From Escherichia coli (lineage in GTDB: Bacteria > Pseudomonadota > Gammaproteobacteria > Enterobacterales > Enterobacteriaceae): a stretch of DNA of 64,000 nt. This document shows positions 25,516-31,723 of the stretch, piece after piece. The position numbers and the translations under genes were made by a program. A model generated the notes under the pieces. That model saw nothing but the letters and a program-made list of their open reading frames with translations, was not told the DNA's origin and searched no databases. The stretch lies in assembly GCA_025336685.1 (NCBI GenBank), contig GCA_025336685.1_4717.1; one strand, given 5' to 3'. Numbering within the stretch: position 1 is the first letter of the stretch; every line of letters begins with the position of its first letter.

Positions 25516-25797
25516 TTAATTATTTCGAGAGGTTAACCACGATTCAATTGCGGTGAGGTTGCATTTCAGTTCACGCCAACTAGGGTGTGGTGGGATCACA
25601 GCACCTTTGTCAATTACGGTTAGCTGAACCTGGTATTTCTGTTGCATACGTGCTACCGTATCGCTTACCGAGAGGAAAAGCTGGTAACGTTCGTACGCTG
25701 TCAGTTCGCGGTCCTGATAAACCGCGTAGGTGGCTAACGTAACTTCGCGTAAGTCCTTTGCGTCCACAGAGACGGTGATGAGTTTATATTGACTCAT
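25516..25797 (-). CDS. small hypothetical protein (93 aa)
   Basis: ATG with AAGGAA RBS. Confidence 0.55.
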   Translation of the reverse strand: MSQYKLITVSVDAKDLREVTLATYAVYQDRELTAYERYQLFLSVSDTVARMQQKYQVQLTVIDKGAVIPPHPSWRELKCNLTAIESWLTSRNN

Positions 25798-25859: not shown

Positions 25860-28418
25860 TTACTGCTCTTCACGTTCCAACAGATACTCGGAAGCGGTAA
25901 TACCGTTTACCGTACGTACCGCTTTCAGACGAGTATCGTCACTCAGAATCACGGTAACAGACTGCAGACCTTTTACTTTGGTCTCGAAGGTCTTGAATAC
26001 CTGATCCAGCATACGAGCAATGCTTGGGTTGGTTGCAGCCGATGCGTGAGTGTAACCGTTCTGGTTCAGCTTCAGAATCTTGGCGTTGGTTGGTACACGA
26101 AGAACAACATGCGGACGCATTGCGAACACACTGTGGTTAAACCAGTAAGCATCGTTACTATCTTCGTCAGTGACGATGTCTGGATTAACACGCATGTCTT
26201 CGGTAGCCGCACCCGCCAAACGACGTTCGATTTCGTCAGCATCCAGAGAGCCGTCCTTCTCCAGTTCTGCACGATACTCACTCATGGCAACCAGATGACG
26301 TTCACGATTCGCTGCAGATTTTTCGTGAGCGGCTTTCAGGTAGTCATGCATGTTGTACAGTTCTGCCATGGAAAGACGAATGTTCCACTGACCTTCGCCG
26401 TCACGATTGCAGTAGAGACACTTCAGCATGTTGACCCAGGTGTAGTAGCAATTGGAGAACTCATCTTCAATGAACTTCTGATCCATTTTAAGATCGTGAA
26501 TCAGCCAACCGGACAGTTCTCCGATATCATCAACGAAGCTAGAAATGGTGGTTTCAGAGAAGTTCTTCGGTACGATACGTTTGATCAGCTTGTTAACGTC
26601 TTTGGTCATGCTATCATTCAGGAAATGCCAGATACGCAGAGGAATGACATCACGATACTGTTGCATGATCTGACGATAAGCTTTGATATCGTCGCTACGA
26701 CCTTTATCAATAGACAACGCGTCCAGGAATTCATGGATAGCATCCAGCTCTTTGTCGGTATAGGTTCCCAGATAGGAATTGACCGTGGCAAGGAATGCTA
26801 ATGCGTCGTTTTGGTTGACGTCGGTGTTGGTCTGCTGAATGATCGCTACTGCAGCTTTGGTTTCAGCATCCTCAACGCTTGACGCTGCGATTGCGTCGGT
26901 AACAGTAAACAGTTTCATTTCGCGCTGTTCGCCGACAACGATCGGTTCGCGTTGAACCGGTTTGTTAAGACTAACGCGAACAACTTCTGCTTGCGCGATA
27001 CGATCCAGTTTTACCATTTCCTGCTCCGCCATACGACGAGCGGTCGGATCTGATTCAAGTTCGATGTATTCCACTTCTTCCTCCGTGAGGGATGTAATGT
27101 CAACAATGGTTTCATGAAGAATTCCGTTTTCGTCGATACGTGCTCGACGAGCGAAGTGTCTGAAGTCATACAACGTTGGCCAGCGACAATTAGGCGCATA
27201 GTCTTTGGCCTTCAGACGCATCTGCATAAATTCTTCATGTTGAACAACACGACCGTAACGCTTAGCATCTTCGGTCGCATCAATTGGATTAACGGTCTTT
27301 GTTACCGTAGCAGAACGAGCCGTACGAATGGGTTCCGGTTTAGTCTGCACTGGTTCAGGTTGAACGGATTTCTGTTGTCCAGCCTTAACATGCCATTCGG
27401 GTTCTTCGTACCGTTCAGCAAATTGCTCGGCTGCTGCAAAGATATCATTGATACCACCAATATCTCCTTCTGGATTCGTCGAATATATCCGTGGTTGCGG
27501 TGCCTCGTAACGCGGCGCTGAGGTAGCAGATGCGTCGTTAACGACAGGATCGTCATCGCCAACATCATACAAACGGTTGAACGCACAATCCTTCGAATCG
27601 ATGTACGATGGAGTTTGTGGTTGGATAACCGTCGGTCGAGGCTGTGCGCCGTATCCCGGCATTGTTGGAGCCATACCACGCATAACTGCTGGGTTAGGTT
27701 GGTATTGTGGTTGTGGGTAGGTTCCGCCATACGTGGGATATGCAGGCTGTTGCGGTTGACCGTACCCACCACCAACCATCGCATTTGCTTGCGGTCCACG
27801 GTAAGTCATCCCCAGTTGCATCACCTGTTGCTTCAGACCGCGGGACTTCTGCGCTATTTGTGCTAGACTCCCACTTTTATTTAGCTGCGTGTACTTATTC
27901 GCGGCTTCCGGGTTAATGCGCGATAATTCAATCGCACGATAATACTCCGGGTATTGATTGGCTTCAAAGAGCCACGTTACAAGGTGATACAGCGCAACTG
28001 TGCTCACAGCAGCAGAGACGATCTGGTCGTTGGACGCATTCTGCGGCATCGGGTTGATGTAAGAGAATACGTTCCAGCAACAGTCTTCAACAAGCGATTC
28101 CATCATCATGTCGTTATTGGTGTAACGTGAGACGAACTCGGTTTGTATTTTATCCTGTTGGGCGAAGTCTTTCAGGACATTGAAGACAGCTTGACGGATT
28201 TTGACGATCGTCGCTTCTTGGGTGATGAAGTTATAGTTCTGCTGATATGATGGTTGCTGGTACTGTGGTGGTTGATAGGTGTTATTCGGGTATGCGCTGT
28301 ACTGCGGTTGCTGGTACTGTTGTTGGCGAACCTGTTCAGCCGCATAATTAATCGTACTCGCATAAGGGTTTTCGTTGTAGCCCATTTGCTGATACATGTT
28401 GTTACTGCCATTATACAT
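25860..28418 (-). CDS. hypothetical protein with two Q/Y/P-rich low-complexity (prion-like) regions
   Basis: 852 aa, ATG with AAGGA RBS; residues 1-65 (QQQYQQPQYSAYPNNTYQPPQYQQPSYQQNY) and about 205-270 (GGGYGQPQQPAYPTYGGTYPQPQYQPNP...). Confidence 0.75.
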   Translation of the reverse strand: MYNGSNNMYQQMGYNENPYASTINYAAEQVRQQQYQQPQYSAYPNNTYQPPQYQQPSYQQNYNFITQEATIVKIRQAVFNVLKDFAQQDKIQTEFVSRYTNNDMMMESLVEDCCWNVFSYINPMPQNASNDQIVSAAVSTVALYHLVTWLFEANQYPEYYRAIELSRINPEAANKYTQLNKSGSLAQIAQKSRGLKQQVMQLGMTYRGPQANAMVGGGYGQPQQPAYPTYGGTYPQPQYQPNPAVMRGMAPTMPGYGAQPRPTVIQPQTPSYIDSKDCAFNRLYDVGDDDPVVNDASATSAPRYEAPQPRIYSTNPEGDIGGINDIFAAAEQFAERYEEPEWHVKAGQQKSVQPEPVQTKPEPIRTARSATVTKTVNPIDATEDAKRYGRVVQHEEFMQMRLKAKDYAPNCRWPTLYDFRHFARRARIDENGILHETIVDITSLTEEEVEYIELESDPTARRMAEQEMVKLDRIAQAEVVRVSLNKPVQREPIVVGEQREMKLFTVTDAIAASSVEDAETKAAVAIIQQTNTDVNQNDALAFLATVNSYLGTYTDKELDAIHEFLDALSIDKGRSDDIKAYRQIMQQYRDVIPLRIWHFLNDSMTKDVNKLIKRIVPKNFSETTISSFVDDIGELSGWLIHDLKMDQKFIEDEFSNCYYTWVNMLKCLYCNRDGEGQWNIRLSMAELYNMHDYLKAAHEKSAANRERHLVAMSEYRAELEKDGSLDADEIERRLAGAATEDMRVNPDIVTDEDSNDAYWFNHSVFAMRPHVVLRVPTNAKILKLNQNGYTHASAATNPSIARMLDQVFKTFETKVKGLQSVTVILSDDTRLKAVRTVNGITASEYLLEREEQ

Positions 28419-28453
28419 TTCTTACGATCCTTTTTATTTTATTCGGTTATGTG

Positions 28454-30250
28454 TCAATCGATTATGTCACGATCGTTAATTTCTACAATTTCTTCATCGA
28501 ATCGACCGACGTCTTTCTTCAAGCCTGCATTTGTTGCTGCAACGTCATTTGCGATTTGTGGGGTAACGATTAACCGACCACGCTCATCGATAGGTGCGTA
28601 CATACTGAACTTCTGACGTCCGGTTGGTTCGGAGTGTGGAAGATTCAGATAGCTTGCACAGAACGGGATGGAACCACTAACCAAACGACTCTCGTCAGCC
28701 AATGCAGCACCGCCTGCGTTTTGGCTCTGGAGAACAACATGCGTGCTCACTTTGAACAGCATGCAATCACCAGGTGACTGAATCGATGTTGCCACTTTCT
28801 CACGTTTATCACGATTGCTCTGGATATTGAGAATCGCTTCCGTTGCAACTTGATTTCGCAACGCCTTCTGTACATCGCGATTGGTCATCTCTTTACGGTT
28901 GTTCTGTCGTTTACCACGTTCCGTGGTTTTAAGATGGAACCCCAGTTTAAAGATGCTTTTACGCACATCCTCCATGACATATTCCAACACCATCAATTCC
29001 TTACCGAACATCGTCGTGGTATCAACACGACTCATTTCGATAGTAACATTGTCAATCAGATACGCCATAAATTCGTAGAAGTCGTCGCAAGGAATATTTT
29101 CCTGTTTGAACTTCTTCTGTTGAATTTCGTCAACGTAAAGATCGAGACTGTCGATGTGGTGGTTTACATCACGCAACAAACGCGCATCCGCATTGTTGTT
29201 ATTAAAGATAATCAAACCGAGTAATGTACGCCAATGGTCTGGCGCATTCGCGAACTCTTCAACCGGATAGTCTTCCGGGAAACGATCGTAATAACGGTCG
29301 ATGAGATATAAGAACGCACCGACAAGGCCAAGAACAATACGTTCCGTACCTCCACGTCTTACAGCGATTTGAATATCAGGATGTTTATAACGTACAGCGT
29401 TAGCGCTACGGCTTTTACCGCTTTTGCTGATACTAAAGCCTTTAGGAATAACCCCCATGGTGCGATAGATTACCCATTGGTCGCGCGGAAAATCACGTTC
29501 AGCAAGGTTCCGTCCGGTTACGGCTTCGACACCTGCAAAACGTCGGAAACATTCACCCACCCCATACTTCGCAAAGAGATAATGACCCAGTGTGGTTACG
29601 CTGGTGTGGTTGATGTTGTCACCGTTCACTTTACTTTGTTTGGTAAGATGATAGATTTGCGACCAGGGTAACGACAGATAATGACGATAATCGATACCCG
29701 TTGGTGTATCATTGCTCAGGAACTGATACGGTGTACGTTTAACCGTGATTTTGTCACGCGGAAGCATGATGAACGCCATGTCTTTCGTGTAACTGATTAC
29801 AGGGTCAGCGAGCACCGCACTGAGAATGAAGTTCGCACCACGTAGACGCATTTTACCACCCTGACCTACTGCGGGCAATAGGAGAGGATGTCGGATAATG
29901 CAGTAGTCCTTTCCCGGCTCACGGCGGTCACCTGATTCCATCGCACCGTACCAGCGGAATTCTAGCATCACCATAAACACGTCGGAAGGTGCAAGGTCGA
30001 AGGTCAGCTTACCGCTATCCTTCCCTTTGGTTTTCTTTCCTCCGCTTAAGTAGTGGAACTGTTCGCGGGCCATACAACGACGTAGGCCATGATACACCAG
30101 ATCCTTAGGTAAACTATCTTTGCTGTTCCGCCAAAGACGATCAACATAGGACTCAACATCTTGCATCTTATCGACGACGATGTTGCGTGCTATCTTCTCG
30201 TTCATCTTCGGTGCAAGCTCAGCGACAGCTTTGCAGAATCTAGGATCCAT
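28454..30250 (-). CDS. hypothetical protein (598 aa)
   Basis: ATG with AGGAG RBS; no motif recognised. Confidence 0.75.
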   Translation of the reverse strand: MDPRFCKAVAELAPKMNEKIARNIVVDKMQDVESYVDRLWRNSKDSLPKDLVYHGLRRCMAREQFHYLSGGKKTKGKDSGKLTFDLAPSDVFMVMLEFRWYGAMESGDRREPGKDYCIIRHPLLLPAVGQGGKMRLRGANFILSAVLADPVISYTKDMAFIMLPRDKITVKRTPYQFLSNDTPTGIDYRHYLSLPWSQIYHLTKQSKVNGDNINHTSVTTLGHYLFAKYGVGECFRRFAGVEAVTGRNLAERDFPRDQWVIYRTMGVIPKGFSISKSGKSRSANAVRYKHPDIQIAVRRGGTERIVLGLVGAFLYLIDRYYDRFPEDYPVEEFANAPDHWRTLLGLIIFNNNNADARLLRDVNHHIDSLDLYVDEIQQKKFKQENIPCDDFYEFMAYLIDNVTIEMSRVDTTTMFGKELMVLEYVMEDVRKSIFKLGFHLKTTERGKRQNNRKEMTNRDVQKALRNQVATEAILNIQSNRDKREKVATSIQSPGDCMLFKVSTHVVLQSQNAGGAALADESRLVSGSIPFCASYLNLPHSEPTGRQKFSMYAPIDERGRLIVTPQIANDVAATNAGLKKDVGRFDEEIVEINDRDIID

Positions 30251-30289: not shown

Positions 30290-31723
30290 TTACTTTTTCG
30301 ATGACGCCTTCTCAAGAATCTTGAAAAAGGTCATACCTATACCGACAACAGCCGCGGTTATACTCGCAGCGGCTTTCCAAACATCGACGTTACGTTGACG
30401 TCGTGCTTCTTCCGCTTCACGTTGTCTTTTTGCCTCTTCATCACGTCGACGTATCTCAGCAGCAAACTCGTCATGCTTACGTTTGGCTTCTTCGTCTCGA
30501 CGACGAAGTTCAGCGACGAATTCTTCATGTTTGCGTTTAGCCTCATCATCACGACGTTTTAAATCAGCTTGATAATCTTCGTGTATTTGTCTACGTAGAT
30601 CATCTTGACGTTTCATTTCGGCTTGGTGTTGTTCCATCCTACGTTTTTGTTCGTCTTTAAGCTGATCGAGTTCGGCTTTATGTTGTTCGTCGCGCAGCTT
30701 TGCGTCGGCGCGATGCGCTTCATGCATCTGTGCGATAACTGCCTTGTGTTCATCCGCCATACGTCGCATTTCAGCCATCACCCCTTTAAGGGTTTCTTCT
30801 GACGACTTACGTTCGTAGCTGCGTTGGTCGAAATCATTTTTGTAGGCTTCTTTTTGGATGGGATCGCGCCAATGCAATGCCGATTCACGCGTCGGAAAAA
30901 CATTGTACTTCCACATCTCTTTTTCCAAATCTTCGACCGGTACGAAGATGGAGTCATTATTCCCGAAGGTAACCAACATACCTGGCGCGCCTGCTCCATT
31001 CGTTGGTTTTATTTCGAACGCTTTCCCCAGCACGTTAACCCATAGGCTATACGGATTATGAAAGTCGGGTGGCGTCCAGTGGATAGTGAGTTGCGTTCCG
31101 AGAATCCGGAAACCCTCTGTCTTTCCTGTTAAACTACGCGCACATGTTGCGATGTAGGGGTGATCAATCCCTTTCGTAACATGGTCTGCGCTTTTGTATT
31201 CTCCTTTAACTTTTACGATTGCCACGTTGATTTGCGCGACATAAATAGGTTGATTAAAGTTCAACGTGTTGAGGTCAATTTGACATATCTCGTCCAGCGT
31301 ATCGTACCAGTCTTGCTGGTCTAATAGACGCGGTATTTTCTCTGTGTTAACGATGCGACGGATATGCGGTTTCCTTATCGCGTAACCTGTACCATTTTTA
31401 ACACGGAGTATATCCCGACGTCTACCCGCGTAGACGAAGTTTCTGAATGCACCATTCGCATTAGATACGTCATGGCTGTCAACTATTACAGGACTACGAA
31501 ATTTTGAACGTCGTACGATCCTGAATGTATTACTGTCCTCAACTCTACCAGGAATGTACTGGAACATATTGTCGGAGGTGATAACCAACACGGTATGGCC
31601 GGATTCATTAATACATGCCCACCCTAATTCCAGGTCATACAACGGTTCAGCATAACCGTCAATGCGATATGCGTACCATCCCCACGGTTCGAACGCGGTA
31701 TCACATATTGGCATGGAGGGCAT
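30290..31723 (-). CDS. tail-anchored membrane protein: N-terminal globular domain, ER/K-rich helix, C-terminal TM segment
   Basis: 477 aa, ATG with GGAGGTG RBS; residues about 330-450 are E/R/K/D/Q/H repeats (EEAKRKHEEF..RRRDEEAKRKHDEF..); C-terminal AAASITAAVVGIGMTFFKIL then KASSKK. Confidence 0.75.
   Translation of the reverse strand: MPSMPICDTAFEPWGWYAYRIDGYAEPLYDLELGWACINESGHTVLVITSDNMFQYIPGRVEDSNTFRIVRRSKFRSPVIVDSHDVSNANGAFRNFVYAGRRRDILRVKNGTGYAIRKPHIRRIVNTEKIPRLLDQQDWYDTLDEICQIDLNTLNFNQPIYVAQINVAIVKVKGEYKSADHVTKGIDHPYIATCARSLTGKTEGFRILGTQLTIHWTPPDFHNPYSLWVNVLGKAFEIKPTNGAGAPGMLVTFGNNDSIFVPVEDLEKEMWKYNVFPTRESALHWRDPIQKEAYKNDFDQRSYERKSSEETLKGVMAEMRRMADEHKAVIAQMHEAHRADAKLRDEQHKAELDQLKDEQKRRMEQHQAEMKRQDDLRRQIHEDYQADLKRRDDEAKRKHEEFVAELRRRDEEAKRKHDEFAAEIRRRDEEAKRQREAEEARRQRNVDVWKAAASITAAVVGIGMTFFKILEKASSKK
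30380..30560 (-). repeat. imperfect tandem repeat of about 54 nt inside 30290..31723
   Basis: Repeated cttacgtttggcttcttcgtctcgacgacgaagttcagcgacgaattcttcatg-type units encoding the RRRDEEAKRKH(E/D)EF(V/A)AE(L/I) repeats. Confidence 0.5.

What the first reader, a model, noticed from the sequence alone, without database searches (positions are those of the whole stretch)
25860..28418. 852-aa protein with two Q/Y/P-rich prion-like low-complexity regions
Residues 1-65 and about 205-270 are dominated by Q, Y, P, N and G (QYQQPQYSAYPNNTYQPPQYQQPSYQQNY; GGGYGQPQQPAYPTYGGTYPQPQYQPNPAVMRGMAPTMPGYGAQPRP). This composition is typical of eukaryotic phase-separating or amyloid-prone domains and unusual in phage proteins. 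The rest of the protein is ordinary and acidic. It could be a condensate-forming or matrix protein of the virion or infected cell.
Basis: seen in the sequence. Interest (0 to 1): 0.65.

Follow-up and report, generated by a model that had tools for sequence, protein, structure and literature searches.

The report
Tyrosine/glutamine-rich tails on phage JADA protein
The 852-residue protein is the Goslar-group version of JADA, a recently described essential early protein of nucleus-forming jumbo phages. Its two "prion-like" stretches are real, selected, disordered segments: an N-terminal tail and part of the linker between two folded domains, and their role is still untested.

Summary
An 852-aa ORF on the minus strand (25860-28418) has two Q/Y/P/N/G-rich, almost uncharged stretches (residues 1-65 and 205-272). 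The best 60-residue window has 41 Q/N/Y/P against a 17.6% background (P about 7e-18), and nothing comparable exists in the window or in the whole Goslar genome.

The window is a relative of E. coli jumbo phage Goslar (93% nt), and the gene is Goslar gp38. [quoted passage not shown] In Pseudomonas phages JADA is an essential, early, dimeric protein that gathers at the early infection vesicle and triggers the Avs5 defence.

The low-complexity regions are the N-terminal tail and the first third of JADA's disordered interdomain linker. All 47 family representatives analysed have such a linker, but its composition changes between clades: Q/P/Y/M, G/N/W, RGG-like or R/D-rich. The Goslar clade is the most tyrosine-rich. 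There the low-complexity regions are under purifying selection (dN/dS 0.07-0.18) and 20 of 21 aromatic positions are kept.

Condensate formation is plausible but untested; amyloid or prion behaviour is unlikely. This is a new member of a known family.

The parts
25860..28418 (-). Complete CDS (852 aa plus stop), ortholog of Goslar gp38 and member of the JADA family (phiKZ gp124 / Pa36 gp316)
   Evidence: 93.1% nt and 95.4% aa identity to Goslar_00038; family membership
28428..28433 (-). Shine-Dalgarno-like AAAGGA, 9 nt upstream of the ATG. Only 35 nt separate this gene from the stop of the upstream RNA polymerase subunit gene.
   Evidence: sequence read directly; ORF coordinates
28224..28418 (-). 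Low-complexity region 1, residues 1-65: N-terminal Q/Y/N/P tail with 13 aromatic residues about 5 apart and 3 charged residues. It contains QQQYQQPQ and PQYQQP words.
   Evidence: dN/dS 0.07-0.17, and this is the only region with indels in the clade
27807..28223 (-). N-terminal helical domain, residues about 66-204, homologous to the JADA N-domain
   Evidence: hhalign of the Goslar clade against the family N-domain profile: probability 93.7%, E 2e-7, 94 columns. Plain HMM searches do not bridge the clades
27603..27806 (-). Low-complexity region 2, residues 205-272: P/G/Q/Y-rich first third of the interdomain linker
   Evidence: dN/dS 0.07-0.18, no indels, and 8 of 8 aromatic positions invariant in the clade
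27279..27602 (-). Rest of the linker, residues 273-380: acidic, proline-rich, low in hydrophobic residues, presumably disordered. A recombination breakpoint between Goslar-like phages lies here.
   Evidence: (no confident structure)
25863..27278 (-). C-terminal domain, residues 381-852, homologous to the dimer-forming JADA C-domain solved in PDB 9RP3
   Evidence: Iterative HMM search; hhalign probability 98.2%, E 5.9e-14, 249 columns; family profile against PDB gives 9rp3_A at E 1e-83; Foldseek of a weak AF2 model has 9rp3_B as its only hit at E<=0.001 (E 7e-4; 9rp3_A next at 2.6e-3)
28454..30250 (-). Upstream, co-oriented gene: non-virion RNA polymerase beta-type subunit (Goslar gp39, phiKZ gp123). 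This is the conserved synteny partner of JADA.
   Evidence: PMC12931631

Best explanation
The ORF encodes the Goslar-lineage ortholog of JADA, an essential early protein of nucleus-forming jumbo phages (Chimalliviridae). It is always encoded directly after a subunit of the phage's non-virion RNA polymerase.

By homology, the C-terminal domain (residues about 381-852) forms a rigid homodimer. A small helical N-terminal domain (about 66-204) hangs from it on a disordered linker of about 180 residues. The two 'prion-like' stretches are (i) an N-terminal tail ahead of the N-domain and (ii) the first third of that linker.

Shown here: family membership, the domain architecture, the fact that every family representative analysed has a low-complexity linker, and that in the Goslar clade both regions are under purifying selection with their tyrosines conserved.

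Taken from the literature on Pseudomonas phages: the protein is made early and is abundant, gathers at the early-infection vesicle, is needed for normal phage transcription and propagation, and is the trigger sensed by the Avs5 defence.

Inferred: the tyrosine 'stickers' in Q/P/G 'spacers', four such segments per dimer, act as flexible, weakly adhesive, multivalent tethers. These would help concentrate JADA and whatever its N-domain binds at the vesicle or nascent nucleus, by self-association or by binding partner proteins or nucleic acids. They would not act as amyloid-forming prion domains.
For: Identity:
- 93% nt and 95% aa identity to Goslar gp38.
- An iterative HMM search started from residues 381-852 reaches 82 of the 84 sequences in the target set (the ORFs found directly downstream of the nvRNAP gene plus the window protein, P0001-P0007 and phiKZ gp124), including phiKZ gp124 (E 3.7e-56) and RAY gp4. 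The only hit among the 861 control ORFs is the displaced L012 homolog, which is not a false positive.
- Direct profile-profile alignment of the Goslar clade against the phiKZ clade: probability 98.2%, E 5.9e-14 for the C-domain and 93.7%, E 2e-7 for the N-domain.
- The family profile hits PDB 9rp3 'Gp316/JADA' at E 1e-83, and 9rp3 differs from phiKZ gp124 by one residue.
- Synteny (capsid protein, gp40, nvRNAP subunit, JADA, small ORF, portal on the opposite strand) is conserved in L002, RAY and phiKZ. A 610-940 aa ORF follows the nvRNAP gene in 75 of 80 IMG/VR loci.
- The Prichard 2023 table places Goslar gp038 in the same column as RAY gp004 and 201phi2-1 gp204.

Biology of the family:
- PMC12931631.
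- phiKZ TnSeq: 0 insertions in 2166 bp of PHIKZ124 against 16 in the downstream gene.
- Antisense knock-down of PHIKZ124 impairs propagation and strongly alters phage transcription at 30 min.

Low-complexity regions:
- All 47 representatives analysed have a 95-433 aa linker (median 159) with a median of 14% ILVFC. 18 of 47 also have an N-tail of at least 30 aa that is at least 55% Q/N/P/G/aromatic/M.
- The window protein ranks first of 48 for tyrosine density and joint first for Q/N/Y/P density.
- dN/dS in the two regions is 0.07-0.18, against 0.03-0.16 in the folded domains, and 20 of 21 aromatic positions are kept.
Against: No experiment addresses the low-complexity regions in any JADA. Pa36 JADA purifies as a soluble dimer and is diffuse in uninfected cells, so its linker is not sufficient for self-condensation at those expression levels. 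The JADA paper does not mention low complexity or condensates.

Linker composition is not conserved between clades, which also fits a passive spacer. N-domain homology rests on one profile-profile alignment. Both structure predictions were poor (pLDDT 35 and 51), so the fold match to 9RP3 has a low TM-score of 0.23-0.27. All functional data come from Pseudomonas phages; for the Goslar lineage there is only virion mass spectrometry.
Confidence: 0.5

Rival explanations
1. Same protein identity, but the low-complexity regions are only passive, flexible spacers. They set the reach between the N-domain and the dimeric C-domain, with no adhesive or condensate role. Their composition drifts with lineage.
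For: Linker composition switches completely between clades (Q/P/Y/M, G/N/W, RGG-like, R/D-rich) while its presence and approximate length persist. Pa36 JADA is a soluble dimer and diffuse without infection, and the C-domain alone triggers Avs5. Region 1 tolerates indels.
Against: Within the Goslar clade the regions are as constrained as the folded domains (dN/dS 0.07-0.18), and 20 of 21 aromatic positions are kept at synonymous divergence of up to about 1-2. A pure spacer should not keep tyrosine positions. Every alternative flavour (RGG, R/D, G/W/N) is itself a typical interaction-prone composition, not a neutral G/S/T spacer. An N-terminal tail has no spacing function.
Confidence: 0.3
2. The protein is, in addition or instead, packaged into the capsid at low copy number and injected with the DNA. 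The disordered, uncharged tails would help it pass through the tail or act at the entry site.
For: Goslar gp038 was found in CsCl-purified virions with 26 peptides and 28% coverage, at an estimated 17/25/39 copies. That is as abundant as the portal (estimated 16 for a true 12) and more abundant than the virion RNA polymerase subunits at 7-21 copies. The gene lies between the capsid and portal genes. JADA acts at the entry-site vesicle.
Against: The same preparation contains clearly non-virion proteins at higher levels: chimallin about 126 copies, PhuZ about 171, ChmC about 76, thymidylate synthase about 20. gp38 was not modelled in the cryo-EM maps or discussed. phiKZ gp124, 201phi2-1 gp204 and RAY gp4 are not annotated as virion proteins while their neighbours are. 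JADA is reported as newly made and abundant at 10 min.
Confidence: 0.15
3. The regions are true prion or amyloid-forming domains that switch the protein into a self-templating aggregate.
For: The composition resembles yeast prion domains in being Q/N/Y/G-rich and nearly uncharged. The resemblance to the Sup35 repeats is recalled from memory only.
Against: Proline is 9% in region 1 and 21% in region 2, and proline is known to inhibit prion formation (established knowledge, Toombs et al. 2010, from memory). The maximum is 28 Q/N per 80 residues, under the classical threshold of 30. The Pseudomonas ortholog is a well-behaved soluble dimer solved at 2.1 A. An essential early protein is a poor candidate for irreversible aggregation.
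Confidence: 0.03
4. Region 1 imitates the host's own PQ-rich FtsK linker, or another host Q/P/Y-rich segment, in order to engage host division or replication proteins.
For: Region 1 shares the 8-residue word QQQYQQPQ, plus PQYQQP, with the repeated linker of E. coli K-12 FtsK. Only 1 of 5000 composition-preserving shuffles reaches an 8-mer. A second-hand statement says phiKZ gp124 was among phage proteins found bound to host DnaX and FtsZ (PMC11849849).
Against: FtsK was chosen after the fact from memory, so the test is biased. There is no DNA similarity. Both sequences are internally repetitive, so convergence is easy. The primary source for the DnaX/FtsZ claim could not be read. Other clades, including another Goslar-related lineage (P0005), lack this motif.
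Confidence: 0.05

Closest known systems
[quoted passage not shown]
   Same: Homologous C-terminal domain and N-terminal domain, with a disordered linker between them. The gene lies directly downstream of, and co-oriented with, an nvRNAP subunit gene, in a chimallivirus genome. The size class is similar (852 aa against 721 aa).
   Different: Only 12-18% identity to non-Goslar members. The N-domain is recognisable only by profile-profile comparison. The Goslar clade adds a 65-aa tyrosine-rich N-terminal tail and has the highest Tyr and Q/N/Y/P density in the family. Nothing is known experimentally for this lineage apart from detection in virion preparations. Whether it activates any Avs5 is untested.
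ChmC (PhiPA3 gp61 / phiKZ gp67 / Goslar gp176), the phage-nucleus-associated RNA-binding protein
   Same: A chimallivirus-specific protein that carries a low-complexity tail (an N/G-rich C-terminus in Goslar). The ChmC preprint has a condensate analysis.
   Different: No sequence relationship was found. ChmC is much smaller (262 aa in Goslar). Its RNA-binding role comes from the paper's title and abstract, whereas the activity of JADA is unknown.
Eukaryotic prion-like low-complexity domains (FUS, hnRNPA1, Sup35 N): the sticker-and-spacer model (e.g. PMC9748015)
   Same: Nearly uncharged, Q/N/G/P/S spacers with evenly spaced tyrosines about every 5 residues in region 1. They are attached to an oligomerising folded domain, which gives multivalency.
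   Different: Bacteriophage context. Short (65-68 aa) and proline-rich, just under the classical Q/N threshold. No evidence of phase separation or amyloid. Sister clades use RGG-like or R/D-rich linkers instead.
PQ-rich linker of E. coli FtsK
   Same: The same peptide words (QQQYQQPQ, PQYQQP) in a disordered, uncharged Q/P/Y repeat of the host.
   Different: No DNA similarity and no homology of the flanking domains. FtsK has far less tyrosine and regular 13-residue repeats. The functional link is pure conjecture.

Membership tests
JADA (phiKZ gp124 / Pa36 gp316) | C-terminal domain homologous to the dimeric domain solved in 9RP3 | tested here: met
   Iterative HMM search; hhalign of the Goslar clade against the phiKZ clade gives probability 98.2%, E 5.9e-14 over 249 columns; family profile against PDB gives 9rp3_A at E 1e-83
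JADA (phiKZ gp124 / Pa36 gp316) | Separate N-terminal helical domain | tested here: met
   hhalign probability 93.7%, E 2e-7, over residues about 78-179. Plain HMMs fail to bridge the clades, so support is moderate.
JADA (phiKZ gp124 / Pa36 gp316) | Long disordered linker between the two domains | tested here: met
   Residues 205-380 have low-complexity composition and few hydrophobic residues. All 47 family representatives analysed have such a linker. Disorder itself is inferred from composition and the lack of any confident structure.
JADA (phiKZ gp124 / Pa36 gp316) | Gene immediately downstream of, and co-oriented with, an nvRNAP subunit gene in a chimallivirus genome | tested here: met
   35-nt gap after the nvRNAP beta-type gene at 28454-30250. 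The same arrangement is seen in 75 of 80 fetched loci.
JADA (phiKZ gp124 / Pa36 gp316) | Same three-dimensional fold as 9RP3 and homodimer formation | tested here: inconclusive
   The AF2 model of residues 381-852 has pLDDT 51. In Foldseek against the PDB, 9rp3_B is the only hit at E<=0.001 (E 7e-4, probability 0.99; 9rp3_A follows at E 2.6e-3), but the TM-score is only 0.23-0.27. Dimerisation was not modelled.
JADA (phiKZ gp124 / Pa36 gp316) | Early expression, essentiality, localisation to the early infection vesicle, activation of Avs5 | not testable with these tools
   Shown only for Pa36 and phiKZ. There are no data for Goslar-type phages.
Prion-like / amyloid-prone domain | At least 30 Q/N in an 80-residue window (Michelitsch-Weissman criterion) | tested here: not met
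   Maximum 28 per 80
Prion-like / amyloid-prone domain | Very low charge, with evenly spaced aromatic residues in polar spacers | tested here: met
   3 charged residues in 65 and 3 in 68. Region 1 has 13 aromatic residues with spacings of mostly 5; region 2 has 8 aromatic residues.
Prion-like / amyloid-prone domain | Low proline content; positive PLAAC or PAPA score; amyloid formation | tested here: inconclusive
   Proline is 9% in region 1 and 21% in region 2, which argues against amyloid. PLAAC, PAPA and IUPred are not available here and were not run. Amyloid formation is not testable with these tools.
Virion (packaged) protein | Reproducible presence in purified particles at defined stoichiometry, above the level of non-virion contaminants | tested here: inconclusive
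   Literature table only: about 25 copies (range 17-39), in a preparation that also contains chimallin, PhuZ, ChmC and thymidylate synthase

The most novel reading that the evidence does not exclude
JADA's disordered tail and linker may be the scaffold of a membraneless hub around the early infection vesicle. Each dimer would carry four adhesive low-complexity segments that concentrate the newly made non-virion RNA polymerase, phage transcripts or ribosomes during the switch from vesicle to phage nucleus. Different phage clades would achieve the same phase behaviour with interchangeable flavours: tyrosine/glutamine 'prion-like', G/N/W, RGG or R/D mixed-charge. The Goslar clade would be the extreme tyrosine-rich solution, possibly tuned to host Q/P/Y-rich partners such as the FtsK linker. 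That would be a phage example of composition-swapping condensate scaffolds.
Probability: 0.15. Interest if true: 0.8.

Novelty: new member of a known kind. Interest (0 to 1): 0.42.

Why it matters
JADA is essential to nucleus-forming jumbo phages and is the trigger of a dedicated bacterial defence, yet its molecular function is unknown. The published work describes its linker only as 'disordered'.

Three results here give concrete handles on how JADA gathers at the infection vesicle. Every family representative analysed has a low-complexity linker. The flavour of that linker flips between clades among compositions typical of nucleic-acid-binding or condensate proteins. In the Goslar clade the tyrosine-rich segments are under purifying selection. 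Tyr-to-Ser mutants, linker swaps between clades and deletion of the N-terminal tail could all be tested in the E. coli/Goslar system, where RNA-targeting knock-down already works. If instead the segments prove to be passive spacers, that closes off a tempting but wrong 'phage prion' reading.

Tried and rejected
- **Family libraries.** Pfam and PHROGs give no family for the protein. The only hit is Cas9_C_2 (E 0.003 and 0.0012, 18-19 bits against a cut-off of 27). A weak profile hit to a Cas9 chain (E 0.032) falls on a different part of the domain. Both were treated as chance.
- **Sequence searches.** tblastn against 50,697 phage records and the word-indexed protein search found only Goslar-like sequences. 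The exhaustive HMMER scan of 1.84 billion representatives with residues 271-852 found only one further cluster, P0005. The family could be reached only by collecting syntenic ORFs and iterating profiles locally.
- **Family-profile search.** The last word-indexed search, run with the family profile, returned only 3 proteins.
- **Structure prediction.** Full-length AF2 with 5 sequences gave pLDDT 35. The C-domain with 9 sequences gave pLDDT 51.
- **N-domain HMMs.** Neither a Goslar-clade nor a phiKZ-clade N-domain HMM bridges the clades. Only hhalign does.
- **Repeats.** Tandem Repeats Finder found no repeat under the low-complexity regions.
- **Promoter and terminator scans.** These gave fewer sites than shuffled sequence and are not relevant for a phage with its own polymerases.
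- **Literature.** Searches for Goslar gp38, phiKZ gp124, PhiPA3 gp140 and 201phi2-1 gp204 gave nothing functional until the PDB hit supplied the name JADA. The primary source for the 'gp124 binds DnaX/FtsZ' statement is not in the library. The stored peptide table of the Goslar virion study is truncated, so peptide coverage of the N-terminal half could not be assessed.
- **FtsK.** A DNA-level relationship with ftsK was rejected.
- **Not run.** PLAAC, PAPA and IUPred were not available.
Full report
**1. The observation**

The window carries an 852-codon ORF at 25860-28418, on the minus strand. It has an ATG start and an AAAGGA ribosome-binding site 9 nt upstream.

Residues 1-65 are Q 23%, Y 18%, N 15%, P 9%. 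Residues 205-272 are P 21%, G 15%, Q 15%, Y 12%. Each stretch has only three charged residues.

Against the window's own proteome (Q+N+Y+P = 17.6%), the best 60-residue window has 41 such residues (P 6.7e-18; 1e-13 after correcting for all windows). The next best protein in the window has 23. I reassembled the whole genome of the closest sequenced phage and scanned its 245 proxy genes. The orthologous protein is again the single outlier, with 34 of 50 against 22 of 50.

Aromatic residues in the first region are spaced about five apart. No DNA tandem repeat underlies either region.

**2. Where the window comes from**

The gene is 93.1% identical in DNA and 95.4% in protein to Goslar_00038 of Escherichia phage vB_EcoM_Goslar, a nucleus-forming jumbo phage, where it is annotated 'hypothetical protein'.

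A 2026 preprint on the Goslar virion identifies gp41 as the major capsid protein, gp36 as the portal and gp35 as an inner baseplate protein (Table S4). My searches identify gp39, the gene immediately upstream of the target and in the same orientation, as a non-virion RNA polymerase beta-type subunit.

**3. Finding the family**

Standard routes failed:
- Pfam and PHROGs gave no family.
- tblastn against 50,697 phage records found only Goslar.
- The word-indexed search found four near-identical clusters.
- An exhaustive HMMER scan of 1.84 billion representatives with residues 271-852 found one further cluster, P0005, at 38% identity.

P0005 sits in a contig with identical gene order: capsid protein, two ORFs, nvRNAP subunit, homolog, small ORF, portal on the opposite strand.

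A supplementary table of Prichard et al. 2023 places Goslar gp038 in the same column as RAY gp004, 201phi2-1 gp204 and PhiPA3 AEH03563. RAY gp4 and phiKZ gp124 occupy the same position after the nvRNAP subunit gene.

I then fetched 80 IMG/VR loci using an alignment of the nvRNAP subunit. In 75 of them a 610-940 aa ORF follows directly.

A local iterative profile search was started from residues 381-852 of the window protein (inclusion E 1e-3, database size set to 1e6). It converged on 82 of the 84 sequences in the target set, which comprised those downstream ORFs plus the window protein, P0001-P0007 and phiKZ gp124. Its only hit among 861 control ORFs was a displaced true homolog in L012.

Direct profile-profile comparison, using only Goslar-clade sequences on one side and only phiKZ-clade sequences on the other, gives probability 98.2% and E 5.9e-14 over 249 columns for the C-terminal domain. 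For the N-terminal domain it gives 93.7% and E 2e-7 over 94 columns.

**4. The family has a name and a structure**

A profile of 48 C-terminal domains hits PDB entry 9RP3, 'Gp316/JADA', at E 1e-83. That chain differs from phiKZ gp124 by one residue.

The paper is Muralidharan et al., Mol Cell 2026 (PMC12931631). [quoted passage not shown]
- It is an essential, early-expressed, chimallivirus-specific protein, invariably encoded downstream of an nvRNAP subunit.
- The C-terminal domain forms a rigid homodimer of novel fold and is sufficient to trigger the Sir2 NADase of Avs5.
- A fluorescent fusion is diffuse before infection and forms foci at the early infection vesicle afterwards.
- Its molecular function is stated to be unknown; a role in early transcription is suggested.

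Independent data agree. phiKZ TnSeq found no insertion in the 2166 bp of PHIKZ124 but 16 in the downstream gene, which argues against a polar artefact. Antisense knock-down of PHIKZ124 reduces propagation and strongly alters phage transcription at 30 min.

The paper does not mention low complexity, prion-like composition or condensates, and it does not name the Goslar ortholog in the text held here.

**5. What the low-complexity regions are**

Mapped onto the family architecture, region 1 (residues 1-65) is a tail in front of the N-domain. Region 2 (205-272) is the first third of the interdomain linker. The remainder of the linker (273-380) is acidic and proline-rich.

All 47 family representatives for which both domain boundaries could be placed have a linker of 95-433 residues (median 159) with a median of only 14% ILVFC. 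Of these, 18 also have an N-terminal tail of at least 30 residues that is at least 55% Q/N/P/G/aromatic/M.

Linker composition, however, changes completely between clades:

| Flavour | Examples |
|---|---|
| Q/P/Y/M/G-rich | Goslar, RAY, phiKZ |
| G/N/W/Q-rich | L008, L015 |
| RGG-like | L033, L054 |
| Long R/D mixed-charge repeats | L019, L034, L036, L037, L056, L060, L084 |

The window protein is the extreme of the family. It ranks first of 48 for tyrosine density and joint first for Q/N/Y/P density.

**6. Are they selected?**

I compared five Goslar-clade genes (window, Goslar, L006, L007, L085). Results are:

| Region | dN/dS |
|---|---|
| Region 1 | 0.07-0.17 |
| Region 2 | 0.07-0.18 |
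| N-domain | 0.03-0.16 |
| C-domain | 0.04-0.10 |

Synonymous divergence reaches about 1-2. Twenty of 21 aromatic positions remain aromatic. Indels occur only in region 1.

Within the clade, then, the segments are not neutrally drifting spacers.

**7. Mechanism**

Shown here or taken from the literature:
- The protein is a JADA ortholog.
- By homology it should dimerise through its C-domain, which places two tails and two linkers, four low-complexity segments, on each particle.
- JADA accumulates at the infection vesicle and is needed for normal transcription (shown in Pseudomonas phages only).

Inferred: the tyrosine stickers in Q/P/G spacers act as flexible, weakly adhesive, multivalent tethers that help concentrate JADA and its partners. 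I put this at roughly 0.35-0.5.

The main rival is a purely passive spacer, at about 0.3. It is favoured by the compositional turnover between clades and by the soluble, diffuse behaviour of Pa36 JADA without infection. It is disfavoured by the conservation of tyrosines, by the existence of an N-terminal tail, and by the fact that all the alternative flavours are themselves interaction-prone compositions.

True prion or amyloid behaviour is unlikely. Proline is 9% and 21%, Q/N reaches 28 per 80 residues against the classical 30, and the ortholog is a well-behaved soluble dimer.

**8. Virion association**

Table S4 of the Goslar virion preprint lists gp038 with 26 peptides and 28% coverage, at an estimated 17/25/39 copies per virion. 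That is comparable to the portal and above the virion RNA polymerase subunits.

The same preparation contains chimallin, PhuZ, ChmC and thymidylate synthase at similar or higher levels. Orthologs in phiKZ, 201phi2-1 and RAY are not annotated as virion proteins.

Packaging therefore remains open, at about 0.15. It is not exclusive of the main explanation.

**9. Structure prediction**

The full-length model built from five sequences was unusable (pLDDT 35). Its only PDB match at E<=0.001 is 9rp3_B (E 7e-4, probability 0.99), with 9rp3_A next at E 2.6e-3, but the TM-score is 0.23-0.27. The fold test is therefore inconclusive, and membership rests on sequence and synteny.

**10. Verdict**

The finding is real and well described. 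It is not an orphan curiosity. It is the tail and linker of the Goslar-lineage member of a family characterised in 2025-2026.

What appears new is the family-wide picture: a low-complexity linker in every representative analysed, interchangeable flavours between clades, an extreme tyrosine-rich version under purifying selection here, and an extra N-terminal tail. The condensate idea is a reasonable, testable hypothesis, not a result.

Noticed in passing
window 28224-28418 (residues 1-65) compared with E. coli K-12 ftsK (L091:2225-6214): Region 1 shares the 8-residue word QQQYQQPQ, and also PQYQQP, with the repeated PQ-rich linker of the host protein FtsK. Only 1 of 5000 composition-preserving shuffles reaches an 8-mer. 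There is no DNA similarity. FtsK was picked from memory, so the test is biased.
   Followed up: partly
window 30290-31723 (minus strand; Goslar gp40, same column as RAY gp001 in the Prichard table): The last 150 residues or so form a very highly charged E/R/K/D/Q stretch with three copies of RRRDEEAKRKHEEFxAEx. A hydrophobic C-terminal segment follows (AAASITAAVVGIGMTFF...KK) that looks like a membrane tail anchor. RAY gp1 and phiKZ gp122 also end in a hydrophobic or amphipathic tail after a charged helix. PHIKZ122 knock-down strongly affects phage transcription. It could be a vesicle-membrane partner of the neighbouring nvRNAP/JADA genes.
   Followed up: partly
window 25860-28418 compared with L006:7832-10423 and L085:6001-8592: The gene is mosaic among Goslar-like phages. 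In L006 the N-terminal part (regions 1 and 2 and the N-domain) matches L085 (dS 0.1-0.28), but its C-domain matches the window (dS 0.21, against 0.82-0.84 to L085). This implies a recombination breakpoint inside the disordered linker, around residues 273-380.
   Followed up: partly
Goslar genome MK327938.1 160931-161719 and 156216-157496 (outside the window): The second-tier low-complexity segments in the Goslar proteome are the N/G-rich C-terminal tail of ChmC (gp176) and a G/M/P/W-rich C-terminus of Goslar_00173. Both are possible heterotypic partners for the JADA low-complexity regions.
   Followed up: no
L035:5275-7479 and L048:7633-9852: Two 734-739 aa ORFs occupy the JADA position downstream of the nvRNAP subunit gene, yet neither was reached by the C-domain profile or the N-domain profile. 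They may be very divergent JADA proteins or replacements.
   Followed up: no
Goslar virion mass-spectrometry table (bioRxiv 10.64898/2026.04.21.720040, Table S4): The stored peptide list contains a semi-tryptic gp038 peptide, AAAEQFAEQYEEPEWHVK, which begins after Phe-327 inside the linker. This could reflect in-vivo or in-sample cleavage within the disordered region. The stored file is truncated, so coverage of the N-terminal half could not be checked.
   Followed up: partly
window 25516-25797 (minus strand; Goslar gp37, 93 aa): A small ORF always follows JADA before the opposite-strand portal gene: 91-110 aa in Goslar-like contigs, 146 aa in RAY, 210 aa in phiKZ (gp125). PHIKZ125 tolerates transposon insertions. 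Its function is unknown.
   Followed up: no
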